UHGV virus genome: UHGV-0377831
Strand: one strand, 5' to 3'
Length of the DNA: 32,832 nt
Source: a virus
Part shown: piece by piece, positions 2,050 to 6,378 of the stretch
How the letters are laid out: each line of letters starts with the position of its first letter
How positions within the stretch are numbered: the stretch's first letter is position 1
The notes under the pieces: model-generated
The model's database searches: none
Told to the model about the DNA's origin: nothing
What the model saw: the letters and a program-made list of their open reading frames with translations, nothing else
Made by a program: the position numbers and the translations under genes

Positions 2050-2871
2050 ATGAAACTGGAAGATTTACCGAAATACTACTCCCCAAAATCCCCTGGCCTG
2101 ACCGATGCATCGGCCTCAACGTCAAAAGATGCGCTGAGTATCACTGATGTGATGGCCGCGCAGGGCATGACACAGAATCGGGCTGAGATGGGTTTTTCTG
2201 CGTTCCTGGGGAAAATGGGCATCAGTATGAATGACAGGGCGCGGGCAACAGAATTACTGGCAGATTATGCACTCAGTCGGTGCGATCGTGTGGCGGCGTT
2301 GAGAAAACTTCCGGCAGAAATAAAACCGGTAGTGATGCGCATTATGGCTTCGTACGCTTTTGAGGATTATGCCCGCAGCGCAGCGAGTAAAAAGCAGTGC
2401 CCTTGTTGCTATGGGGAAAAATTTATTGAAAGCGTAGTTTTTACAAACAAGGTCCAGTATCCGGATGGTAAGCCGCCGGTATGGGCAAAGTGTACGAAAG
2501 GTGTGTATTCGTCTTACTGGGAAGAATGGAAAAAAGTCAGGGAGGTGGTAAAAGTTGCCTGTCCGGAGTGTGGCGGAAAGGGTGAGGTTTCCACCGCCTG
2601 TAAGGATTGCCGTGGGCGTGGTGTCGCCATTCATCGTGAAGAGTCGGTAAAACGTGGTATGCCTGTTATCAGAGACTGCCAGCGTTGTGGTGGTCGTGGC
2701 TATGAAAGACTACCATCAACGGAGGCATTTAATGCTATATGCGAGGTGACAAACCAGATAACACGCGCGTCATGGGAAAAAACAGTTAAGAAATTCTATG
2801 ATGCGCTGGTGACCCGGTTTGATATTGAAGAAGCATGGGCTGAGCGGCAGTTAAAAAAGGTAACTAGGTAA
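2050..2871 (+). CDS. Q: Late gene antiterminator Q (non-lambda Q family with CxxC zinc-finger motifs)
   Basis: 273-aa ORF directly upstream of a promoter/terminator pair and the lysis genes; contains CPCC, CPEC, CKDC and CQRC motifs; position is the canonical Q slot after rusA. Confidence 0.82.
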   Translation: MKLEDLPKYYSPKSPGLTDASASTSKDALSITDVMAAQGMTQNRAEMGFSAFLGKMGISMNDRARATELLADYALSRCDRVAALRKLPAEIKPVVMRIMASYAFEDYARSAASKKQCPCCYGEKFIESVVFTNKVQYPDGKPPVWAKCTKGVYSSYWEEWKKVREVVKVACPECGGKGEVSTACKDCRGRGVAIHREESVKRGMPVIRDCQRCGGRGYERLPSTEAFNAICEVTNQITRASWEKTVKKFYDALVTRFDIEEAWAERQLKKVTR

Positions 2872-2876
2872 CAAGG

Positions 2877-2904
2877 TTGATTTTTCCGGAATCTGTGGTA
2901 AATT
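2877..2904 (+). promoter_or_regulatory. Candidate late promoter PR' (with the Q-utilisation region expected here)
   Basis: TTGATT at 2877-2882, a 16-nt spacer, then TAAATT at 2899-2904, immediately downstream of Q and upstream of a terminator, as for lambda PR'/tR'. The transcription start is not determined. Confidence 0.4.
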
Positions 2905-2952
2905 CGTCATAACAATGGGCTTTTTATGCCTGACGTTAGAAGAGTTTCTACA

Positions 2953-2978
2953 ACCCGCCGCCGAGCGGGTTTTTTATT
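2953..2978 (+). terminator. Rho-independent terminator (tR'-like) downstream of the late promoter
   Basis: GC-rich hairpin CCCGC...GCGGG followed by TTTTTTATT. Confidence 0.6.
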
Positions 2979-3014
2979 GCGGAATTAATTACGGACCGTT
3001 ATTATTCTGCTCCC

Positions 3015-3090
3015 GGCCCTTTAGCTCAGTGGTGAGAGCGAGCGACTCATAATCGCCAGGTCGCTGGTTCAAATCCAGCAAGGGCCACCA
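3015..3090 (+). tRNA. tRNA with anticodon CAU, most similar to tRNA-Ile2 (ileX/ileZ type); tRNA-Met not excluded
   Basis: Cloverleaf: acceptor GGCCCTT/AAGGGCC, D-stem GCTC/GAGC, anticodon loop CTCATAA, T-loop TTCAAAT, encoded CCA. Near-identical to E. coli ileX as I recall it. Confidence 0.88.
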
Positions 3091-3097
3091 TCACATA

Positions 3098-3174
3098 CCG
3101 CCATTAGCTCATCAGGAAAGAGCGCCAGCCTTCGAAGCTGGCTGCGCGGGGTTCAAGTCCCCGATGGCGGTCCA
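3098..3174 (+). tRNA. tRNA-Arg (anticodon UCG)
   Basis: Acceptor CCGCCAT/ATGGCGG, anticodon stem CCAGC/GCTGG with loop CTTCGAA, T-arm CGGGG-TTCAAGT-CCCCG, encoded CCA. Confidence 0.85.
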
Positions 3175-3187
3175 TTATCTGCATCAT

Positions 3188-3264
3188 GCGTTGTTAGCTC
3201 AGCCGGACAGAGCAATTGCCTTCTAAGCAATCGGTCACTGGTTCGAATCCAGTACAGCGCGCCA
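3188..3264 (+). tRNA. tRNA-Arg (anticodon UCU, decodes rare AGA/AGG)
   Basis: Acceptor GCGTTGT/ACAGCGC, anticodon stem ATTGC/GCAAT with loop CTTCTAA, T-arm ACTGG-TTCGAAT-CCAGT, encoded CCA. Same Ile/Arg/Arg tRNA trio and position as in Stx-type lambdoid phages. Confidence 0.88.
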
Positions 3265-3371
3265 TATTCATTCTTCCAGATTCCTTTCGGCAGAGCCTTA
3301 TACTGAAATATACCTGGCTCAGGATATTGTTGAAAATATTATATGTTTGTCAAAAATAAAAGTTCTGTTAA

Positions 3372-3728
3372 GTGTTGATTGAGTGTTTGTTATACGGTCT
3401 AATGGTTTTTTCAGCATTAAATATTTATCATTCATATGGTGTGGGTAGAGTGAATATTGATGACGCGTCGGGGTGTTTCATCCTTAGGCAGCGTATTGAT
3501 ATAGTCAATGCAGAACGAGCAAAGGCCTTCAGCCGTTTGACAGTTTTGTTCTGTACTCCTGATCGTCTTTCGGGAAGAGACGTTATTATTCTGAATAGTG
3601 ATGCTATACAGAGGGTTTGCGATGAGTTCATGGTGGCTAATTCAGAATTATTTGCTCTTGTTCAGGAGTACAACAGAATAGCCAGGACCTGTGGTATGGA
3701 TGAACTTCGGATTACTCATCTGGGGTAG
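3372..3728 (+). CDS. Hypothetical protein (cargo ORF downstream of the tRNAs)
   Basis: 118-aa ORF from a GTG (an ATG at 3402 would give 108 aa) in a lower-GC segment; no recognisable domain. Occupies the slot where Stx phages carry stx. Confidence 0.4.
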   Translation: MLIECLLYGLMVFSALNIYHSYGVGRVNIDDASGCFILRQRIDIVNAERAKAFSRLTVLFCTPDRLSGRDVIILNSDAIQRVCDEFMVANSELFALVQEYNRIARTCGMDELRITHLG

Positions 3729-3808
3729 ATACATATCTGGATTATCACCGGTTACGGTAAAAAGTGATTGCTTACTGTTTTTGTGAATGGCATTGCAGCA
3801 GCCGGATA

Positions 3809-3895
3809 ATGTCAGTGCTGGCTGACGGTGTGCTGGTGGCGGGTGTGGTGGTTGCTGCTTTCCCGTTGCTGAAAAAGAAAACGCCAGACTGTTAG
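3809..3895 (+). CDS. Possible 28-aa hydrophobic peptide (MSVLADGVLVAGVVVAAFPLLKKKTPDC)
   Basis: ATG-initiated short ORF encoding one hydrophobic helix with a KKK tail, resembling small membrane toxin peptides. No clear RBS; could be spurious. Confidence 0.2.
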   Translation: MSVLADGVLVAGVVVAAFPLLKKKTPDC

Positions 3896-4120
3896 CCGGG
3901 TATCAGTTAGCGGGAGAAATTTTTAAATACTTCACAATTCAGGCGGTTGACTGTTGTCTGGTTTGCGGGGAGTTTGTTAAAAGAAACTGGCATGGTGAAT
4001 CCCCCTGTGCGGAGGGGCAATCAGCGAGTAGGTATATGGGATAATCGCGGATTCAGGTGCTGGTACTGAATTCACCGGGAGGCACCCGGCACCATGCAAT
4101 GGCACATAGCGCCACTCTCC

Positions 4121-4150
4121 AGCCCCTCTCCGGAGGGGCTGTTTATATTG
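4121..4150 (+). terminator. Strong hairpin with T-rich tail (rho-independent terminator-like)
   Basis: Perfect 8-bp stem AGCCCCTC/GAGGGGCT with loop TCCG, followed by GTTTATATTGATTTTG. A related weaker hairpin (CCCCT...AGGGG) lies at 4002-4017. Confidence 0.55.
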
Positions 4151-4175
4151 ATTTTGTCAGATGTGAGTAAACTCC

Positions 4176-4511
4176 TTATGGACTTTGTTGTTTTAGCCCA
4201 TAAGGACATATTTGCAGAGTGCAACGGTTATTAAAGCATTCATTCAATACGTTATCTGTATTTGTAGGGCATTCCTGGCTGTTTTTGATTAAATTCCAGA
4301 ATGTTTTATTGAATGGTACTACGTTGTAAATGGTTACAGGTAGCACTTTGTTATTGAGCATGATACCTGTGTGAGTCAGTGTAAATATACTTTCAGGAGG
4401 TAAGAAAGCATCCGATTGATACCAGATTATTAATTTTATTTTACTCCATATGACTGAAAAAGATATTCCGCATGATGGCTGGATAACTGTATCAATCACA
4501 ATCCACTTCAT
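4176..4511 (-). CDS. Hypothetical protein, AT-rich cargo gene on the opposite strand to the late operon
   Basis: 111-aa ORF with ATG start and an AAGGAAA RBS about 6 nt upstream on the minus strand; markedly lower GC than the flanks; product not recognised. Confidence 0.5.
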
Positions 4512-4771
4512 TTAGTTTCCTTGTTTATGCCTTGCTGGTGATGTTCTGAAAAGTATAAATGATATTTTTGATTGTAAACCATAGAGCAGAATTATTTTTC
4601 TGATGTTGTTTATTGTTTATTTAAATGCAGGGTGGTTTATATCTCGTCTTGTAGTTTATCCATGCATATCTGCTTGATGATGAAGTTTTTAATTAAGGTA
4701 TGGTTTTGTGTTTTTTCTGTATTACATGTCAGGTATTTTAAAGAATCATTTTTCAGATGGTGGAAAGAACC

Positions 4772-4960
4772 ATGGCATTTAAACACTATGATGTTGTCAG
4801 GGCGGCGTCGCCGTCAGATCTTGCGGAAAAGCTGACACATAAACTGAAAGAGGGCTGGCAGCCGTTTGGTAGTCCGGTGGCCATAACCCCTTATACCCTG
4901 ATGCAGGCGATTGCAGCAGAAGGTGATGTGGTGGTCAGTGGTGCAACTGAGCCGGAGTGA
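4772..4960 (+). CDS. Small DUF1737-like phage protein
   Basis: 62-aa product MAFKHYDVVRAASPSDLAEKLTHKLKEGWQPFG... resembles the DUF1737 domain found alone or at the N-terminus of NanS-p esterases next to the lysis genes of Stx-type prophages (from memory). An alternative ATG lies at 4757. Confidence 0.6.
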   Translation: MAFKHYDVVRAASPSDLAEKLTHKLKEGWQPFGSPVAITPYTLMQAIAAEGDVVVSGATEPE

Positions 4961-5118
4961 TACTACGTCATCGTACTGGCCCGGCATTCCAGGCCATAAA
5001 AGACGGTCTGGCAGTGGGACTAAATGCACTGACGCTGACGGATATTACCAAAAATGCAACGTATGGCGTTGAGATGGAAAGTCTGGTGCTGGAGATAAAT
5101 GCACCGGCATCATCATAA
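4957..5118 (+). CDS. Possible small ORF (53 aa, GTG start) between the DUF1737-like gene and the holin
   Basis: Open frame ending at TAA 5116-5118; no ATG start and no clear RBS; may be a remnant or a small late-region ORF. Confidence 0.2.
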
Positions 5119-5267
5119 AAAGTGAGCCAGTCAAATGGAAGGTATCGTTAAACTCACCGGTAGTGTCAGTGGGTCGTCTGAGACGCCTGCATGAGTTATC
5201 AGAGCCATCAGTACTTAACTGGTGGCTTTTTTATTGTTGTCAGCTTCCGGATAACGGGAGACGGGGT

Positions 5268-5483
5268 ATGTACCAGATGGAAAAAATCACAACAGGTGTG
5301 TCATACACCACGTCAGCGGTGGGAACGGGCTACTGGTTCCTGCAGTTGCTGGACAGGGTTTCCCCGTCTCAGTGGGCGGCAATAGGCGTGCTGGGGAGTC
5401 TGCTGTTTGGGCTGCTGACATATCTGACTAACCTGTATTTCAAAATCAAAGAGGACCGGCGTAAGGCGGCGCGGGGAGAGTAA
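5268..5483 (+). CDS. S: Class II holin (pinholin), phage 21 S type, with dual-start motif
   Basis: [71 protein letters not shown] matches S21/Stx-phage holins; two Met codons (M1, M4) typical of holin/antiholin dual starts. The upstream extension in the ORF track (5163-5267) is probably not translated. Confidence 0.9.
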
Positions 5484-5487
5484 AGTG

Positions 5488-6378
5488 ATGAATAAAAAAT
5501 ATGAACTGGTTGTTAAGGGGATAAATAATTACGGGGATAAGGTTACTGTTACTGTGAAGCCGGAAGGTGACGGGCAAGCGTCGCTGTTGTTGCCAGATGT
5601 GGCGATTAGTCTTGACCGTACTGAAGGTGCCACGCTGGAGTTTTACGAAGCTGAGGCGAAAAAGCAGGCGAAGCAGTTTTTCATGGATGTTGCTGCCGGG
5701 TTATGTGAAGGGGATGGTCCGTTGCCGGAAAAGCGCCCCGTAATTTTAGAGGCGCAGGATGTGTTGATAACCTACAAAGGAAAGCTACCGGGAAGAATTA
5801 CTTGTTCTCTGAAGATGCCGCCGTCAACACTGCGGTCAGAAAAAGATGATGTTGAATCACGTATTGAAAAACTGGAGAGCTACGTCGTTGAGCTGAATAA
5901 GAAATGGTCGATATTGGTGCCTTCTGGCGATGAAAAGCAGTTTGCTGCGTTTGACGATTATTGTCGGAAAGTGATGAGCAGAAATCTCGCAGAGTGTTTC
6001 AGTATTCATAATGATAATTTCAGTGACCCGGAATGGGAGTGTAACCGGCCATCCTTTGTTGTATCCGGTGATGCTGGGAAAATAACCATCTCAGAAAATG
6101 GGAAAGTAACACCTCCATCGCACCAGCACAGTGAGGAGCTCATTGAATTTGCCATTGATTACCTGAAGAACAATAAAAAGCAGGGGCTGATGAAGCGCGT
6201 TGGCCGTTGCATGGGATATCTGCAGGTAGCTGCTGAGATTGAAGCGCTGGCCAGTGGTGCTGATAAGGATGCAATTGTGCGGGAGGCTCTTCTTCGTGAT
6301 TTTAATACTCCACCCTTTAAAAAAGTGCCGGCTTACTGGCTTCATCCGGGGCTGACTTATCTTAAAGTGCGTATTTAG
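5488..6378 (+). CDS. Hypothetical 296-aa soluble protein inserted between holin and endolysin
   Basis: ATG at 5488 (GTG at 5485) with a GGGGAGAG RBS 8 nt upstream; starts 4 nt after the holin stop; no signal peptide, transmembrane segment or recognisable catalytic motif; AT-rich 5' end. Confidence 0.7.
   Translation: MNKKYELVVKGINNYGDKVTVTVKPEGDGQASLLLPDVAISLDRTEGATLEFYEAEAKKQAKQFFMDVAAGLCEGDGPLPEKRPVILEAQDVLITYKGKLPGRITCSLKMPPSTLRSEKDDVESRIEKLESYVVELNKKWSILVPSGDEKQFAAFDDYCRKVMSRNLAECFSIHNDNFSDPEWECNRPSFVVSGDAGKITISENGKVTPPSHQHSEELIEFAIDYLKNNKKQGLMKRVGRCMGYLQVAAEIEALASGADKDAIVREALLRDFNTPPFKKVPAYWLHPGLTYLKVRI

What the first reader, a model, noticed from the sequence alone, without database searches (positions are those of the whole stretch)
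3265..4960. Low-GC cargo island at the stx-equivalent locus (between the tRNA trio and the holin) with ORFs on both strands
The gene order Q, late promoter/terminator, Ile/Arg/Arg tRNAs is that of Stx-converting phages, where stxAB follow the tRNAs. Here that slot carries no toxin-like A/B gene pair. Instead it holds an unrecognised 118-aa ORF (3372-3728), a possible 28-aa hydrophobic peptide, two related GC hairpins, and an AT-rich 111-aa gene on the opposite strand (4176-4511) with its own RBS and an AT-rich upstream region that looks like an independent promoter. A convergently transcribed, low-GC gene inside the late operon is typical of horizontally acquired cargo expressed in the lysogen.
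Basis: partly seen in the sequence, partly recalled or inferred. Interest (0 to 1): 0.7.

Follow-up and report, generated by a model that had tools for sequence, protein, structure and literature searches.

The report
Known iraL moron beside stx slot
The AT-rich gene on the opposite strand is iraL, an already characterised prophage gene that protects the stress sigma factor RpoS from degradation; the hairpins are a known small RNA (STnc100), and only one small conserved protein in the true Shiga-toxin slot still has no known function.

Summary
Comparison with a Stx2a phage shows that window 3273-3931 lies exactly where stx2AB lies. The flank to its right (3932-4991) is shared with Stx2 phages.

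- **Minus-strand gene (4176-4511):** this is iraL. [quoted passage not shown] Its mapped sigma-70 promoter and transcription start site (4544) are present here.
- **The two GC hairpins:** they belong to a full-length STnc100-family sRNA (3961-4150, Rfam 132 bits against a cut-off of 47). The second hairpin is its terminator.
- **The "28-aa peptide":** it is the C-terminal part of a 43-aa DUF3927 membrane peptide.
- **The DUF1737 ORF:** it is the stump of a deleted sialate esterase gene (nanS-p).
- **The "118-aa ORF":** it is a real gene, probably 92 aa starting at GTG 3450. It has dN/dS of 0.27, belongs to phrog_2873, and is modelled as a helical hairpin. Its function is unknown and PGAP left it unannotated in the records examined.
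- **Low GC:** it is confined to iraL with its upstream region and to 3265-3449.

Verdict: a correct reading of a moron island, but already known. Interest is low.

The parts
2876..2975 (+). Late promoter region and tR' terminator downstream of Q (context)
   Evidence: 88% identical to the post-Q segment of a Stx2a phage. Terminator-like hairpin at 2952-2971 followed by a T run.
3015..3264 (+). tRNA trio: tRNA-Ile (CAT, read as Met by ARAGORN), tRNA-Arg (TCG) and tRNA-Arg (TCT)
   Evidence: ARAGORN, Rfam tRNA, PGAP names in an identical record. 93.7% identical to the tRNAs upstream of stx2A in Stx2_EH1910.
3273..3931 (+). Cassette that occupies the exact stx2AB slot (ORF92 plus DUF3927)
   Evidence: Homology to the Stx2a phage stops at 3272 and resumes at 3932, and stx2AB lies between those points in the phage. 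Phage Nil3 has only 23 bp between the matching points. The cassette is present at >= 80% coverage in 1183 of 5426 complete E. coli genomes.
3450..3728 (+). ORF92, a conserved protein of unknown function (phrog_2873). The longer readings from GTG 3372 or ATG 3402 are probably not the true start.
   Evidence: phrog_2873 at E = 5.7e-70. dN/dS of 0.27 in frame against about 1 in the other two frames, compared with a 61%-identical variant. Remote homologues of 91-95 aa start at this position. The GTG at 3372 is GTA in CFT073. The L012 variant is frameshifted upstream of the core. AlphaFold2 gives a helical hairpin with pLDDT 88.5.
3764..3895 (+). DUF3927 family small membrane peptide (43 aa).
   Evidence: Pfam PF13064 at 92.7 bits against a cut-off of 25. 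phrog_1470 'TciB-like' at E = 1.5e-11. One hydrophobic stretch at residues 15-36 followed by KKK. Annotated by PGAP.
3961..4150 (+). STnc100-family sRNA gene. It contains hairpin 1 (4002-4017) and hairpin 2 (4120-4141), which is its intrinsic terminator.
   Evidence: Rfam RF02076 at 132.4 bits (gathering score 47), E = 2.9e-30, model positions 1-206 of 206. Published STnc100 qPCR primers match exactly at 3991 and 4064. The segment is 98.6% identical to the post-tRNA segment of phage Nil3.
4176..4511 (-). iraL, the RssB anti-adaptor (IraM family)
   Evidence: NCBIfam NF007393 at 162 bits against a cut-off of 121. PDB 8TWD (IraM) at E = 9e-32. 100% identical to CFT073 IraL and 59.5% to K-12 IraM. 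Same RefSeq protein, WP_000871291.1, in CFT073 and JJ1886.
4544..4578 (-). iraL sigma-70 promoter: -35 TTTACA at 4578-4573, -10 TATACT at 4557-4552, transcription start at 4544. The 33-nt leader carries AAGGAAAC before the ATG.
   Evidence: The first 30 nt of the published 5'RACE end, ACATCACCAGCAAGGCATAAACAAGGAAAC, are found exactly at 4515-4544 on the minus strand. Both hexamers are identical to CFT073 and the promoter is identical to JJ1886 copy 1.
4579..4756 (.). AT-rich region upstream of iraL (4512-4756 as a whole has GC 0.29)
   Evidence: Composition. About 98% identical to CFT073.
4772..5103 (+). Remnant of the nanS-p sialate O-acetylesterase gene. The N-terminal DUF1737 part (4772-4993) carries a premature TGA at 4958-4960. 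The C-terminal fragment (5011-5103) is in another frame. Codons of about 75-595 are deleted.
   Evidence: Pfam DUF1737 at E = 4e-17. 88-92% identical to residues 1-74 and 45% to residues 596-626 of the 631-aa NanS-p of Stx2_EH1910. PGAP flags it as incomplete. JJ1886 has the full-length esterase at this position.
5201..5229 (+). Strong terminator-like hairpin (12-bp stem followed by T6) just upstream of the holin gene (5268-5483); right-hand boundary of the island
   Evidence: Window 5199-5491 is 93.5% identical to the holin region of the Stx2a phage.

Best explanation
The region is the variable 'moron' stretch of a lambda-like E. coli prophage, between the late-operon tRNAs and the lysis genes. 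It is homologous to the Shiga-toxin locus of Stx phages and is a mosaic of four elements.

1. In the exact stx2AB slot (3273-3931) sits a two-gene cassette: a 92-aa helical-hairpin protein of unknown function and a 43-aa DUF3927 membrane peptide. Both point the same way as the late operon.
2. An STnc100-family small RNA (3961-4150) ends in its own intrinsic terminator.
3. iraL lies on the opposite strand. In the lysogen it is transcribed from its own sigma-70 promoter (start at 4544), independently of prophage induction. IraL binds the receiver domain of the adaptor RssB, so RssB can no longer hand RpoS to the ClpXP protease. RpoS therefore accumulates during exponential growth and pre-arms the general stress response.
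4. The stump of a deleted nanS-p esterase gene.

What is shown here: sequence identity, synteny, family membership and purifying selection. What is taken from published work on the identical CFT073 protein and its near-identical promoter: promoter activity, RssB binding and RpoS stabilisation. What is inferred: that the same holds in this host.
For: - Identity of iraL.
- Promoter and start site. [quoted passage not shown]
- Further expression data in CFT073: iraL mRNA rises at 37 C (PMC12890032) and IraL levels rise in a fur mutant (PMC7157518).
- Slot mapping against the Stx2a phage and against the empty-slot phage Nil3.
- sRNA.
- nanS-p remnant.
- ORF92 is a real gene.
- Prevalence: iraL with its promoter is in 1441 of 5426 complete E. 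coli genomes, and the whole arrangement in 863.
- Four phage records carry a 98.2%-identical IraL.
Against: - No expression data exist for this particular strain.
- The window differs from CFT073 at three positions near the promoter: position -1, one base next to the -35 hexamer, and one base in the leader. Their effect is untested.
- The -35 and -10 hexamers as I place them are only 15 bp apart. The hexamers chosen in the paper are in a figure I could not read.
- ORF92 has no convincing Shine-Dalgarno sequence at any candidate start, and PGAP does not call it.
- The functions of ORF92, DUF3927 and this STnc100 copy remain unknown.
Confidence: 0.9

Rival explanations
1. The island is silent baggage. 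iraL here would be repressed, for example by H-NS on the AT-rich DNA or by the three promoter-proximal differences from CFT073, and the whole segment would be decaying together with the nanS-p stump.
For: - The nanS-p gene is clearly degraded.
- The region upstream of iraL has GC 0.29. From general knowledge, that is the kind of DNA H-NS binds.
- The window differs from CFT073 at -1, next to the -35 hexamer and in the leader.
- PMC4045071 itself notes that a second iraL copy with a -35 mutation may not be expressed.
Against: - The IraL protein is intact and 100% identical to the functional CFT073 protein.
- Differences from CFT073 inside the gene are synonymous.
- dN/dS against iraM is 0.18 and against the Stx2-phage variant 0.16.
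- Both promoter hexamers are unchanged.
- The same promoter variant is found in JJ1886, and matches at 99-100% identity over gene plus promoter occur in 868 genomes.
Confidence: 0.12
2. ORF 3372-3728 is not a gene. It would be a chance open frame in the AT-rich leader of the late operon, and the slot would hold only the DUF3927 peptide and non-coding DNA.
For: - PGAP leaves it unannotated in every record inspected.
- No clear ribosome-binding site.
- No Pfam or NCBIfam family.
- The N-terminal 26 codons are not conserved in frame.
Against: - The 92-aa core keeps an open frame at 61% amino-acid identity, with dN/dS of 0.27 against 0.9-1.2 in the other two frames.
- An exhaustive HMMER search finds homologues at 22-41% identity of the same length.
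- They lie in the same place, downstream of a Q antiterminator.
- AlphaFold2 gives a confident model: pLDDT 88.5, pTM 0.75.
- PHROGs already holds the family.
Confidence: 0.1
3. The GC hairpins are simply terminators that insulate the convergent iraL and late-operon transcripts, and the minus-strand 42-aa ORF that PGAP marks there (3980-4105) is a decayed protein gene rather than an sRNA gene.
For: - Hairpin 2 scores as an intrinsic terminator on the plus strand.
- PGAP annotates a partial hypothetical CDS on the minus strand.
- One phage record annotates a 213-nt ORF at the same place.
Against: - A full-length match to the STnc100 covariance model at 132 bits against 47, including an outer helix (3990-3997 with 4087-4094) and four internal stem-loops.
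- STnc100 copies are transcribed in EDL933 and one was confirmed by Northern blot.
- STnc100 was detected by qPCR with primers that match this sequence exactly.
- The 42-aa ORF has no meaningful family hit.
Confidence: 0.08

Closest known systems
IraL of uropathogenic E. coli CFT073 (c1429; Hryckowian et al. 2014, PMC4045071)
   Same: - The 111-aa protein is identical.
- The prophage context is the same: Q, tRNAs, DUF3927, iraL, DUF1737 stump, holin. About 99% DNA identity over 2 kb.
- The promoter hexamers and the mapped transcription start are the same.
   Different: - Three single-base differences around the promoter and leader.
- CFT073 carries an IS200 between Q and the tRNAs.
- The paper describes the location as the 'potB genomic island'. 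The annotated region shows that it is the late region of a lambda-like prophage.
IraM of E. coli K-12 (b1160; structure with RssB, PDB 8TWD, PMC10844676)
   Same: - Same family (NF007393).
- 59.5% identical, with the structured part (residues 1-78) aligning without gaps.
- Both are RssB anti-adaptors.
   Different: - IraM is induced by Mg2+ starvation and contacts both RssB domains. IraL acts in unstressed log phase and binds only the N-terminal domain in two-hybrid assays.
- No flanking synteny: only the coding sequence aligns, at 71% DNA identity.
stx locus of Stx2-converting phages (for example Stx2_EH1910, 2851, 1717)
   Same: - Same order: Q, pR'/tR', tRNA-Ile/Arg/Arg, slot, STnc100, an IraL/IraM-family gene on the minus strand, nanS-p, holin.
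- STnc100 lies 75 nt downstream of stx2 in STEC.
   Different: - stx2AB is replaced by ORF92 plus DUF3927.
- The anti-adaptor gene in the Stx2 phages is a different clade, 70-74% identical.
- nanS-p is full-length there and a stump here.
STnc100 / PasD prophage sRNAs (Rfam RF02076; Zhu, Shabalina and Storz 2026 preprint)
   Same: - Full-length match to the covariance model.
- Position directly upstream of the sialate esterase gene, as reported for PasD and STnc100.
   Different: The targets and function of this copy are unknown. Whether it is nearer to the PasD or the STnc100 sequence type was not resolved here.
PHROG 2873 and Pfam DUF3927 (both uncharacterised families)
   Same: ORF92 matches phrog_2873 end to end (E = 5.7e-70). 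The 43-aa peptide matches DUF3927 (E = 1.3e-26) and phrog_1470, 'TciB-like'.
   Different: - Neither family has a demonstrated function.
- The two are paired only in this cassette. The ORF92 relatives whose neighbouring small ORFs I scanned (L008, L012, L013, L016, L017) have no DUF3927 partner.

Membership tests
IraM/IraL family of RssB anti-adaptors | Sequence membership above the curated family threshold | tested here: met
   NF007393 at 162 bits against a cut-off of 121, covering residues 1-110. PDB 8TWD (IraM) at E = 9e-32.
IraM/IraL family of RssB anti-adaptors | Identity with the experimentally characterised IraL (CFT073) rather than with IraM | tested here: met
   111 of 111 residues identical to CFT073 IraL; 59.5% to K-12 IraM. 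The paper reports 58.9% between IraL and IraM.
IraM/IraL family of RssB anti-adaptors | Own sigma-70 promoter with the mapped transcription start | tested here: met
   The first 30 nt of the 5'RACE sequence are found exactly at 4515-4544. The TTTACA and TATACT hexamers are conserved. Promoter activity in this strain was not measured.
IraM/IraL family of RssB anti-adaptors | Binds RssB and stabilises RpoS against ClpXP | not testable with these tools
   Shown for the identical protein in PMC4045071. Needs a pull-down or two-hybrid assay and an RpoS half-life measurement in this host.
STnc100 sRNA (Rfam RF02076) | Covariance-model score above the gathering threshold over the full model | tested here: met
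   132.4 bits against 47, model positions 1-206 of 206, E = 2.9e-30.
STnc100 sRNA (Rfam RF02076) | Discrete transcript ending at an intrinsic terminator | tested here: inconclusive
   A terminator hairpin at 4120-4141 with a T run is present. I found no convincing -10 element upstream of 3961 by eye, and the scan lists no plus-strand site there. Transcription is shown only for other copies.
Stx-converting phage toxin locus | Synteny: Q, tR', tRNA-Ile/Arg/Arg, cargo, nanS-p, holin | tested here: met
Stx-converting phage toxin locus | Presence of stxA and stxB | tested here: not met
   tblastn with Stx2A and Stx2B against the whole window gives no hit better than E = 0.37. This is not a Stx phage.
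NanS-p (prophage sialate O-acetylesterase) | N-terminal DUF1737 domain | tested here: met
   PF08410 at E = 4.4e-17. 92% identical to NanS-p residues 1-62.
NanS-p (prophage sialate O-acetylesterase) | SASA esterase catalytic domain | tested here: not met
   Only residues 1-74 and 596-626 have counterparts, in different frames and with a stop codon at 4958. This is a remnant, not a member.
Pfam DUF3927 | Score above the Pfam gathering threshold; single hydrophobic helix | tested here: met
   92.7 bits against 25. Hydrophobic stretch at residues 15-36.
Known anti-phage defence proteins (PADLOC) | Any model hit for ORF92, DUF3927 or IraL | tested here: not met
   No families at E <= 0.1 for these three proteins.

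The most novel reading that the evidence does not exclude
ORF92 (3450-3728) is a functional lysogenic-conversion or host-modulating gene that sits in the exact position of the Shiga-toxin genes in about a fifth of complete E. coli genomes, yet PGAP left it unannotated in the records I looked at. It may act together with the neighbouring DUF3927 membrane peptide. It belongs to a very small family confined to the post-Q cargo position of lambdoid phages. A secondary possibility: iraL has no terminator of its own on the minus strand, so its transcript may run antisense across STnc100 and couple the two regulators.
Probability: 0.2. Interest if true: 0.45.

Novelty: already known. Interest (0 to 1): 0.2.

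Why it matters
The main element, iraL, has been a published determinant of raised RpoS in uropathogenic E. coli since 2014. The finding therefore adds no new biology.

Three smaller points come out of this check:
- iraL, described in the paper as lying on a 'genomic island', is a moron in the late region of a lambda-like prophage. It sits in the flank that Stx2 phages share, next to an STnc100 sRNA.
- The true stx slot here holds a conserved gene that PGAP leaves unannotated and whose function is unknown.
- Stx2/Stx2c phages carry a third, uncharacterised clade of the same anti-adaptor family.

These matter for genome annotation and for asking how prophages tune the general stress response. 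They are increments on known systems.

Tried and rejected
**ORF92 function**
- The afdb50 library was unavailable.
- PADLOC gave nothing for ORF92, DUF3927 or IraL.
- Pfam and NCBIfam gave nothing for ORF92 apart from a chance RHIM match below threshold.
- I tested whether DUF3927 is a conserved partner of the ORF92 family. It is not.

**RNA and other features**
- Rfam at E <= 1 over 2700-5400 found no AsxR, AgvB or other sRNA apart from STnc100 and the tRNAs. The Trp_leader hit on tR' (25.5 bits against 41) is chance.
- Whole-segment RNA folding of 3896-4175 was unremarkable on the plus strand (z = -1.5), so the sRNA call rests on the covariance model.

**Comparisons and literature**
- The supplementary figure of the IraL paper, which shows the promoter alignment, is not held. 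I therefore could not confirm which hexamers the authors called -35 and -10.
- The record with 100% identity over the finding (NZ_CP145671) is not collinear with the whole window, so the source strain is not established.
- I looked for flanking synteny with the K-12 iraM locus. Only the coding sequence aligns.
Full report
**1. What the window is**

The window is the late half of a lambda-like E. coli prophage. From the left it carries hokD, a DUF968 gene, rusA and a Q antiterminator (2050-2871; PF03589). Next come a post-Q promoter/terminator segment with a terminator-like hairpin at 2952-2971 and three tRNAs at 3015-3264. After the region in question come a class II holin (5268-5483), a lysozyme, Rz-type lysis genes, terminase, and lambda-type head and tail genes.

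**2. The observation checks out**

- Every ORF, both hairpins and the low-GC character are present.
- Low GC is not uniform:

| Segment | GC |
|---|---|
| whole window | 0.532 |
| iraL | 0.345 |
| 245 bp upstream of iraL | 0.29 |
| spacer 3265-3449 | 0.314 |
| hairpin (sRNA) segment | 0.553 |
| DUF3927 ORF | 0.515 |

- The only 336-bp windows in the whole 32.8 kb with GC <= 0.36 start between 4141 and 4541.

**3. The minus-strand gene is iraL**

- The 111-aa product scores 162 bits against NCBIfam NF007393, 'anti-adapter protein IraM' (cut-off 121).
- It aligns to the crystallised IraM (PDB 8TWD) at E = 9e-32.
- A record 100% identical over 3265-4960 annotates it as WP_000871291.1. The same accession is the gene in the potB prophage of CFT073 and in JJ1886.
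- Direct translation confirms 111 of 111 identity with CFT073 and 59.5% identity with K-12 IraM.
- That CFT073 gene is iraL (formerly ycgW, c1429). Hryckowian et al. 2014 (PMC4045071) showed that it is an RssB anti-adaptor. [quoted passage not shown]
- The first 30 nt of that 5' end occur exactly at 4515-4544 on the minus strand.
- The TTTACA (4578-4573) and TATACT (4557-4552) hexamers are identical to those of CFT073. There are three nearby single-base differences, which JJ1886 copy 1 shares.
- Later work reports more iraL mRNA at 37 C and more IraL in a fur mutant.
- iraL with its promoter is present in 1441 of 5426 complete E. coli genomes.
It is also already published.

**4. Where the stx slot really is**

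- In Stx2a phage Stx2_EH1910 the order is: Q, tRNA-Met(Ile)/Arg/Arg, stx2A, stx2B, an iraM-like gene on the minus strand, nanS-p (yjhS), holin.
- blastn aligns the window to that phage in three blocks:

| Window | Content | Identity to phage |
|---|---|---|
| 2975-3272 | tRNAs | 93.7% |
| 3932-4991 | stretch beginning just after stx2B | 71.5% |
| 5199-5491 | holin region | 93.5% |

- Window 3273-3931 therefore replaces stx2AB precisely.
- Phage Nil3 has the same two flanks only 23 bp apart, that is, an empty slot.
- The hairpins, iraL and DUF1737 are not alternatives to the toxin. They belong to a right-hand flank that coexists with stx2.
- tblastn finds IraL-family genes in 46 phage records. 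In 41 of them, almost all Stx2, Stx2a or Stx2c phages, the gene is 60-80% identical (72-74% in the rows listed) and often unannotated.

**5. The hairpins are an sRNA gene**

- Rfam RF02076 (STnc100) matches 3961-4150 on the plus strand over the whole model at 132.4 bits (gathering score 47; E = 2.9e-30).
- Hairpin 1 (4002-4017) is an internal stem-loop. Hairpin 2 (4120-4141 followed by a T run) is the terminator.
- An outer helix pairs 3990-3997 with 4087-4094.
- STnc100 has 11 transcribed copies in EDL933, one of them confirmed by Northern blot.
- It lies 75 nt downstream of stx2 in STEC, and the qPCR primers used there match this window exactly.
- A 2026 preprint relates STnc100 to the Hfq-associated PasD sRNAs, which lie directly upstream of the sialate esterase gene.
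- The partial minus-strand CDS that PGAP draws at 3980-4105 overlaps this sRNA and is probably spurious.

**6. The DUF1737 ORF is a stump**

- Residues 1-74 of the 631-aa NanS-p align to 4772-4993 at 88% identity, across a TGA stop at 4958-4960.
- Residues 596-626 align to 5011-5103 in another frame.
- Nothing lies between the two pieces.
- JJ1886 has the full-length esterase at this position.

**7. The slot cassette**

*DUF3927 peptide*
- ORF 3764-3895 is a DUF3927 peptide (92.7 bits against 25) with one hydrophobic helix.

*The '118-aa ORF' is real but probably shorter*
- The GTG at 3372 is GTA in CFT073.
- A 61%-identical variant (L012) is frameshifted upstream of the core but intact from the equivalent of GTG 3450.
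- More distant homologues of 91-95 aa begin there too.
- Across the 92 codons, dN/dS is 0.27, against 1.19 and 0.93 in the other two frames.

*Distribution of the family*
- The family is tiny: an exhaustive profile search of 1.84 billion representative proteins finds 20.
- It is already catalogued as phrog_2873 with no function.
- In the loci that show upstream context it lies downstream of a Q antiterminator in lambdoid elements. It is often followed by STnc100.
- The cassette is in 1183 of 5426 complete genomes. PGAP lists only DUF3927 under the match in every record shown.
- Only one of 50,697 phage records has it, mEp460_ev081, where it is also unannotated.

*Structure and function*
- With the deeper alignment, AlphaFold2 gives a confident helical hairpin (pLDDT 88.5, pTM 0.75). 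The conserved TPDR-x-SG motif sits at the tip.
- Structure searches return only generic coiled-coil hairpins.
- PADLOC returns nothing.
- No function can be assigned.

**8. How the island most likely works**

*Shown here*
- The identities, synteny and selection described above.

*Taken from the literature on the identical protein*
- In the lysogen, iraL is transcribed from 4544 towards the sRNA.
- IraL occupies the RssB receiver domain, RssB cannot deliver RpoS to ClpXP, and RpoS rises in growing cells.

*Inferred*
- The same happens in this host.
- On induction, Q-modified polymerase reads through tR', the tRNAs, ORF92/DUF3927 and the STnc100 terminator, and so meets iraL transcription head-on.
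- The shared hairpin has no U-tract on the minus strand. iraL mRNA may therefore extend antisense over STnc100.

**9. Verdict**

The finding is a correct reading of a prophage cargo island, but its headline element is a published gene, and the hairpins and peptide belong to catalogued families. The only open item is ORF92. Novelty: already known. Interest: low.

Noticed in passing
L006 5253-5576 (Stx2a phage Stx2_EH1910); 41 phage records: Stx2, Stx2a and Stx2c phages (2851, 1717, Stx2a_WGPS and others) carry a third clade of the IraL/IraM family, 107 aa as annotated in Stx2_EH1910. It is 70-74% identical to IraL and 65% to IraM. In Stx2_EH1910 it lies on the minus strand between stx2B and nanS-p. 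It is often unannotated. It would have escaped the >= 95% identity survey in the IraL paper, and it may be relevant to STEC strains with high log-phase RpoS that lack iraL.
   Followed up: partly
window 3450-3728: PGAP does not annotate this conserved ORF, which is under purifying selection, in any record inspected (CFT073, JJ1886, NZ_CP145671, or the 40 records listed). Only the neighbouring DUF3927 gene is called.
   Followed up: yes
window 3980-4105 (-): PGAP marks a partial 'hypothetical protein' pseudogene here. It lies entirely inside the STnc100 sRNA gene and is probably a spurious protein-homology call.
   Followed up: partly
window 5119-5245 (+): A structured segment (z = -2.2) ends in a 12-bp hairpin followed by T6 at 5201-5229, immediately upstream of the holin start codon. 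This is the position (between esterase and holin) where the PasA/PasC sRNAs are reported. There was no Rfam hit, and no comparison with PasA or PasC sequences was possible.
   Followed up: partly
window 4120-4175: iraL has no terminator of its own. Reading the minus strand, the only hairpin after its stop codon is the STnc100 terminator, and no U-run follows it. The iraL 3' end may therefore overlap the sRNA in antisense.
   Followed up: no
window 5485-6378: This 297-aa ORF matches phrog_1085 end to end (E = 2e-188), with a DUF1327/YdfR N-terminal part. In a matching record, however, PGAP annotates only a 336-nt 'incomplete YdfR family' pseudogene. It lies between the holin and lysozyme genes.
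   Followed up: no
L008 4625-5360: In one E. coli contig an IS3-family element is inserted immediately upstream of the ORF92 variant. This creates an artificial N-terminal extension (protein P0017). That contig also carries two STnc100 copies.
   Followed up: no
L005 21700-22158 (CFT073): CFT073 has an IS200C transposase between Q and the tRNAs. The window lacks it. Otherwise the two loci are about 99% identical over the 2-kb region aligned (3265-5300).
   Followed up: no
window 2050-2871: The Q antiterminator (273 aa) contains DnaJ-type CXXCXGXG zinc-finger repeats (PF00684 at E = 8.5e-07, below the threshold) within PF03589.
   Followed up: no
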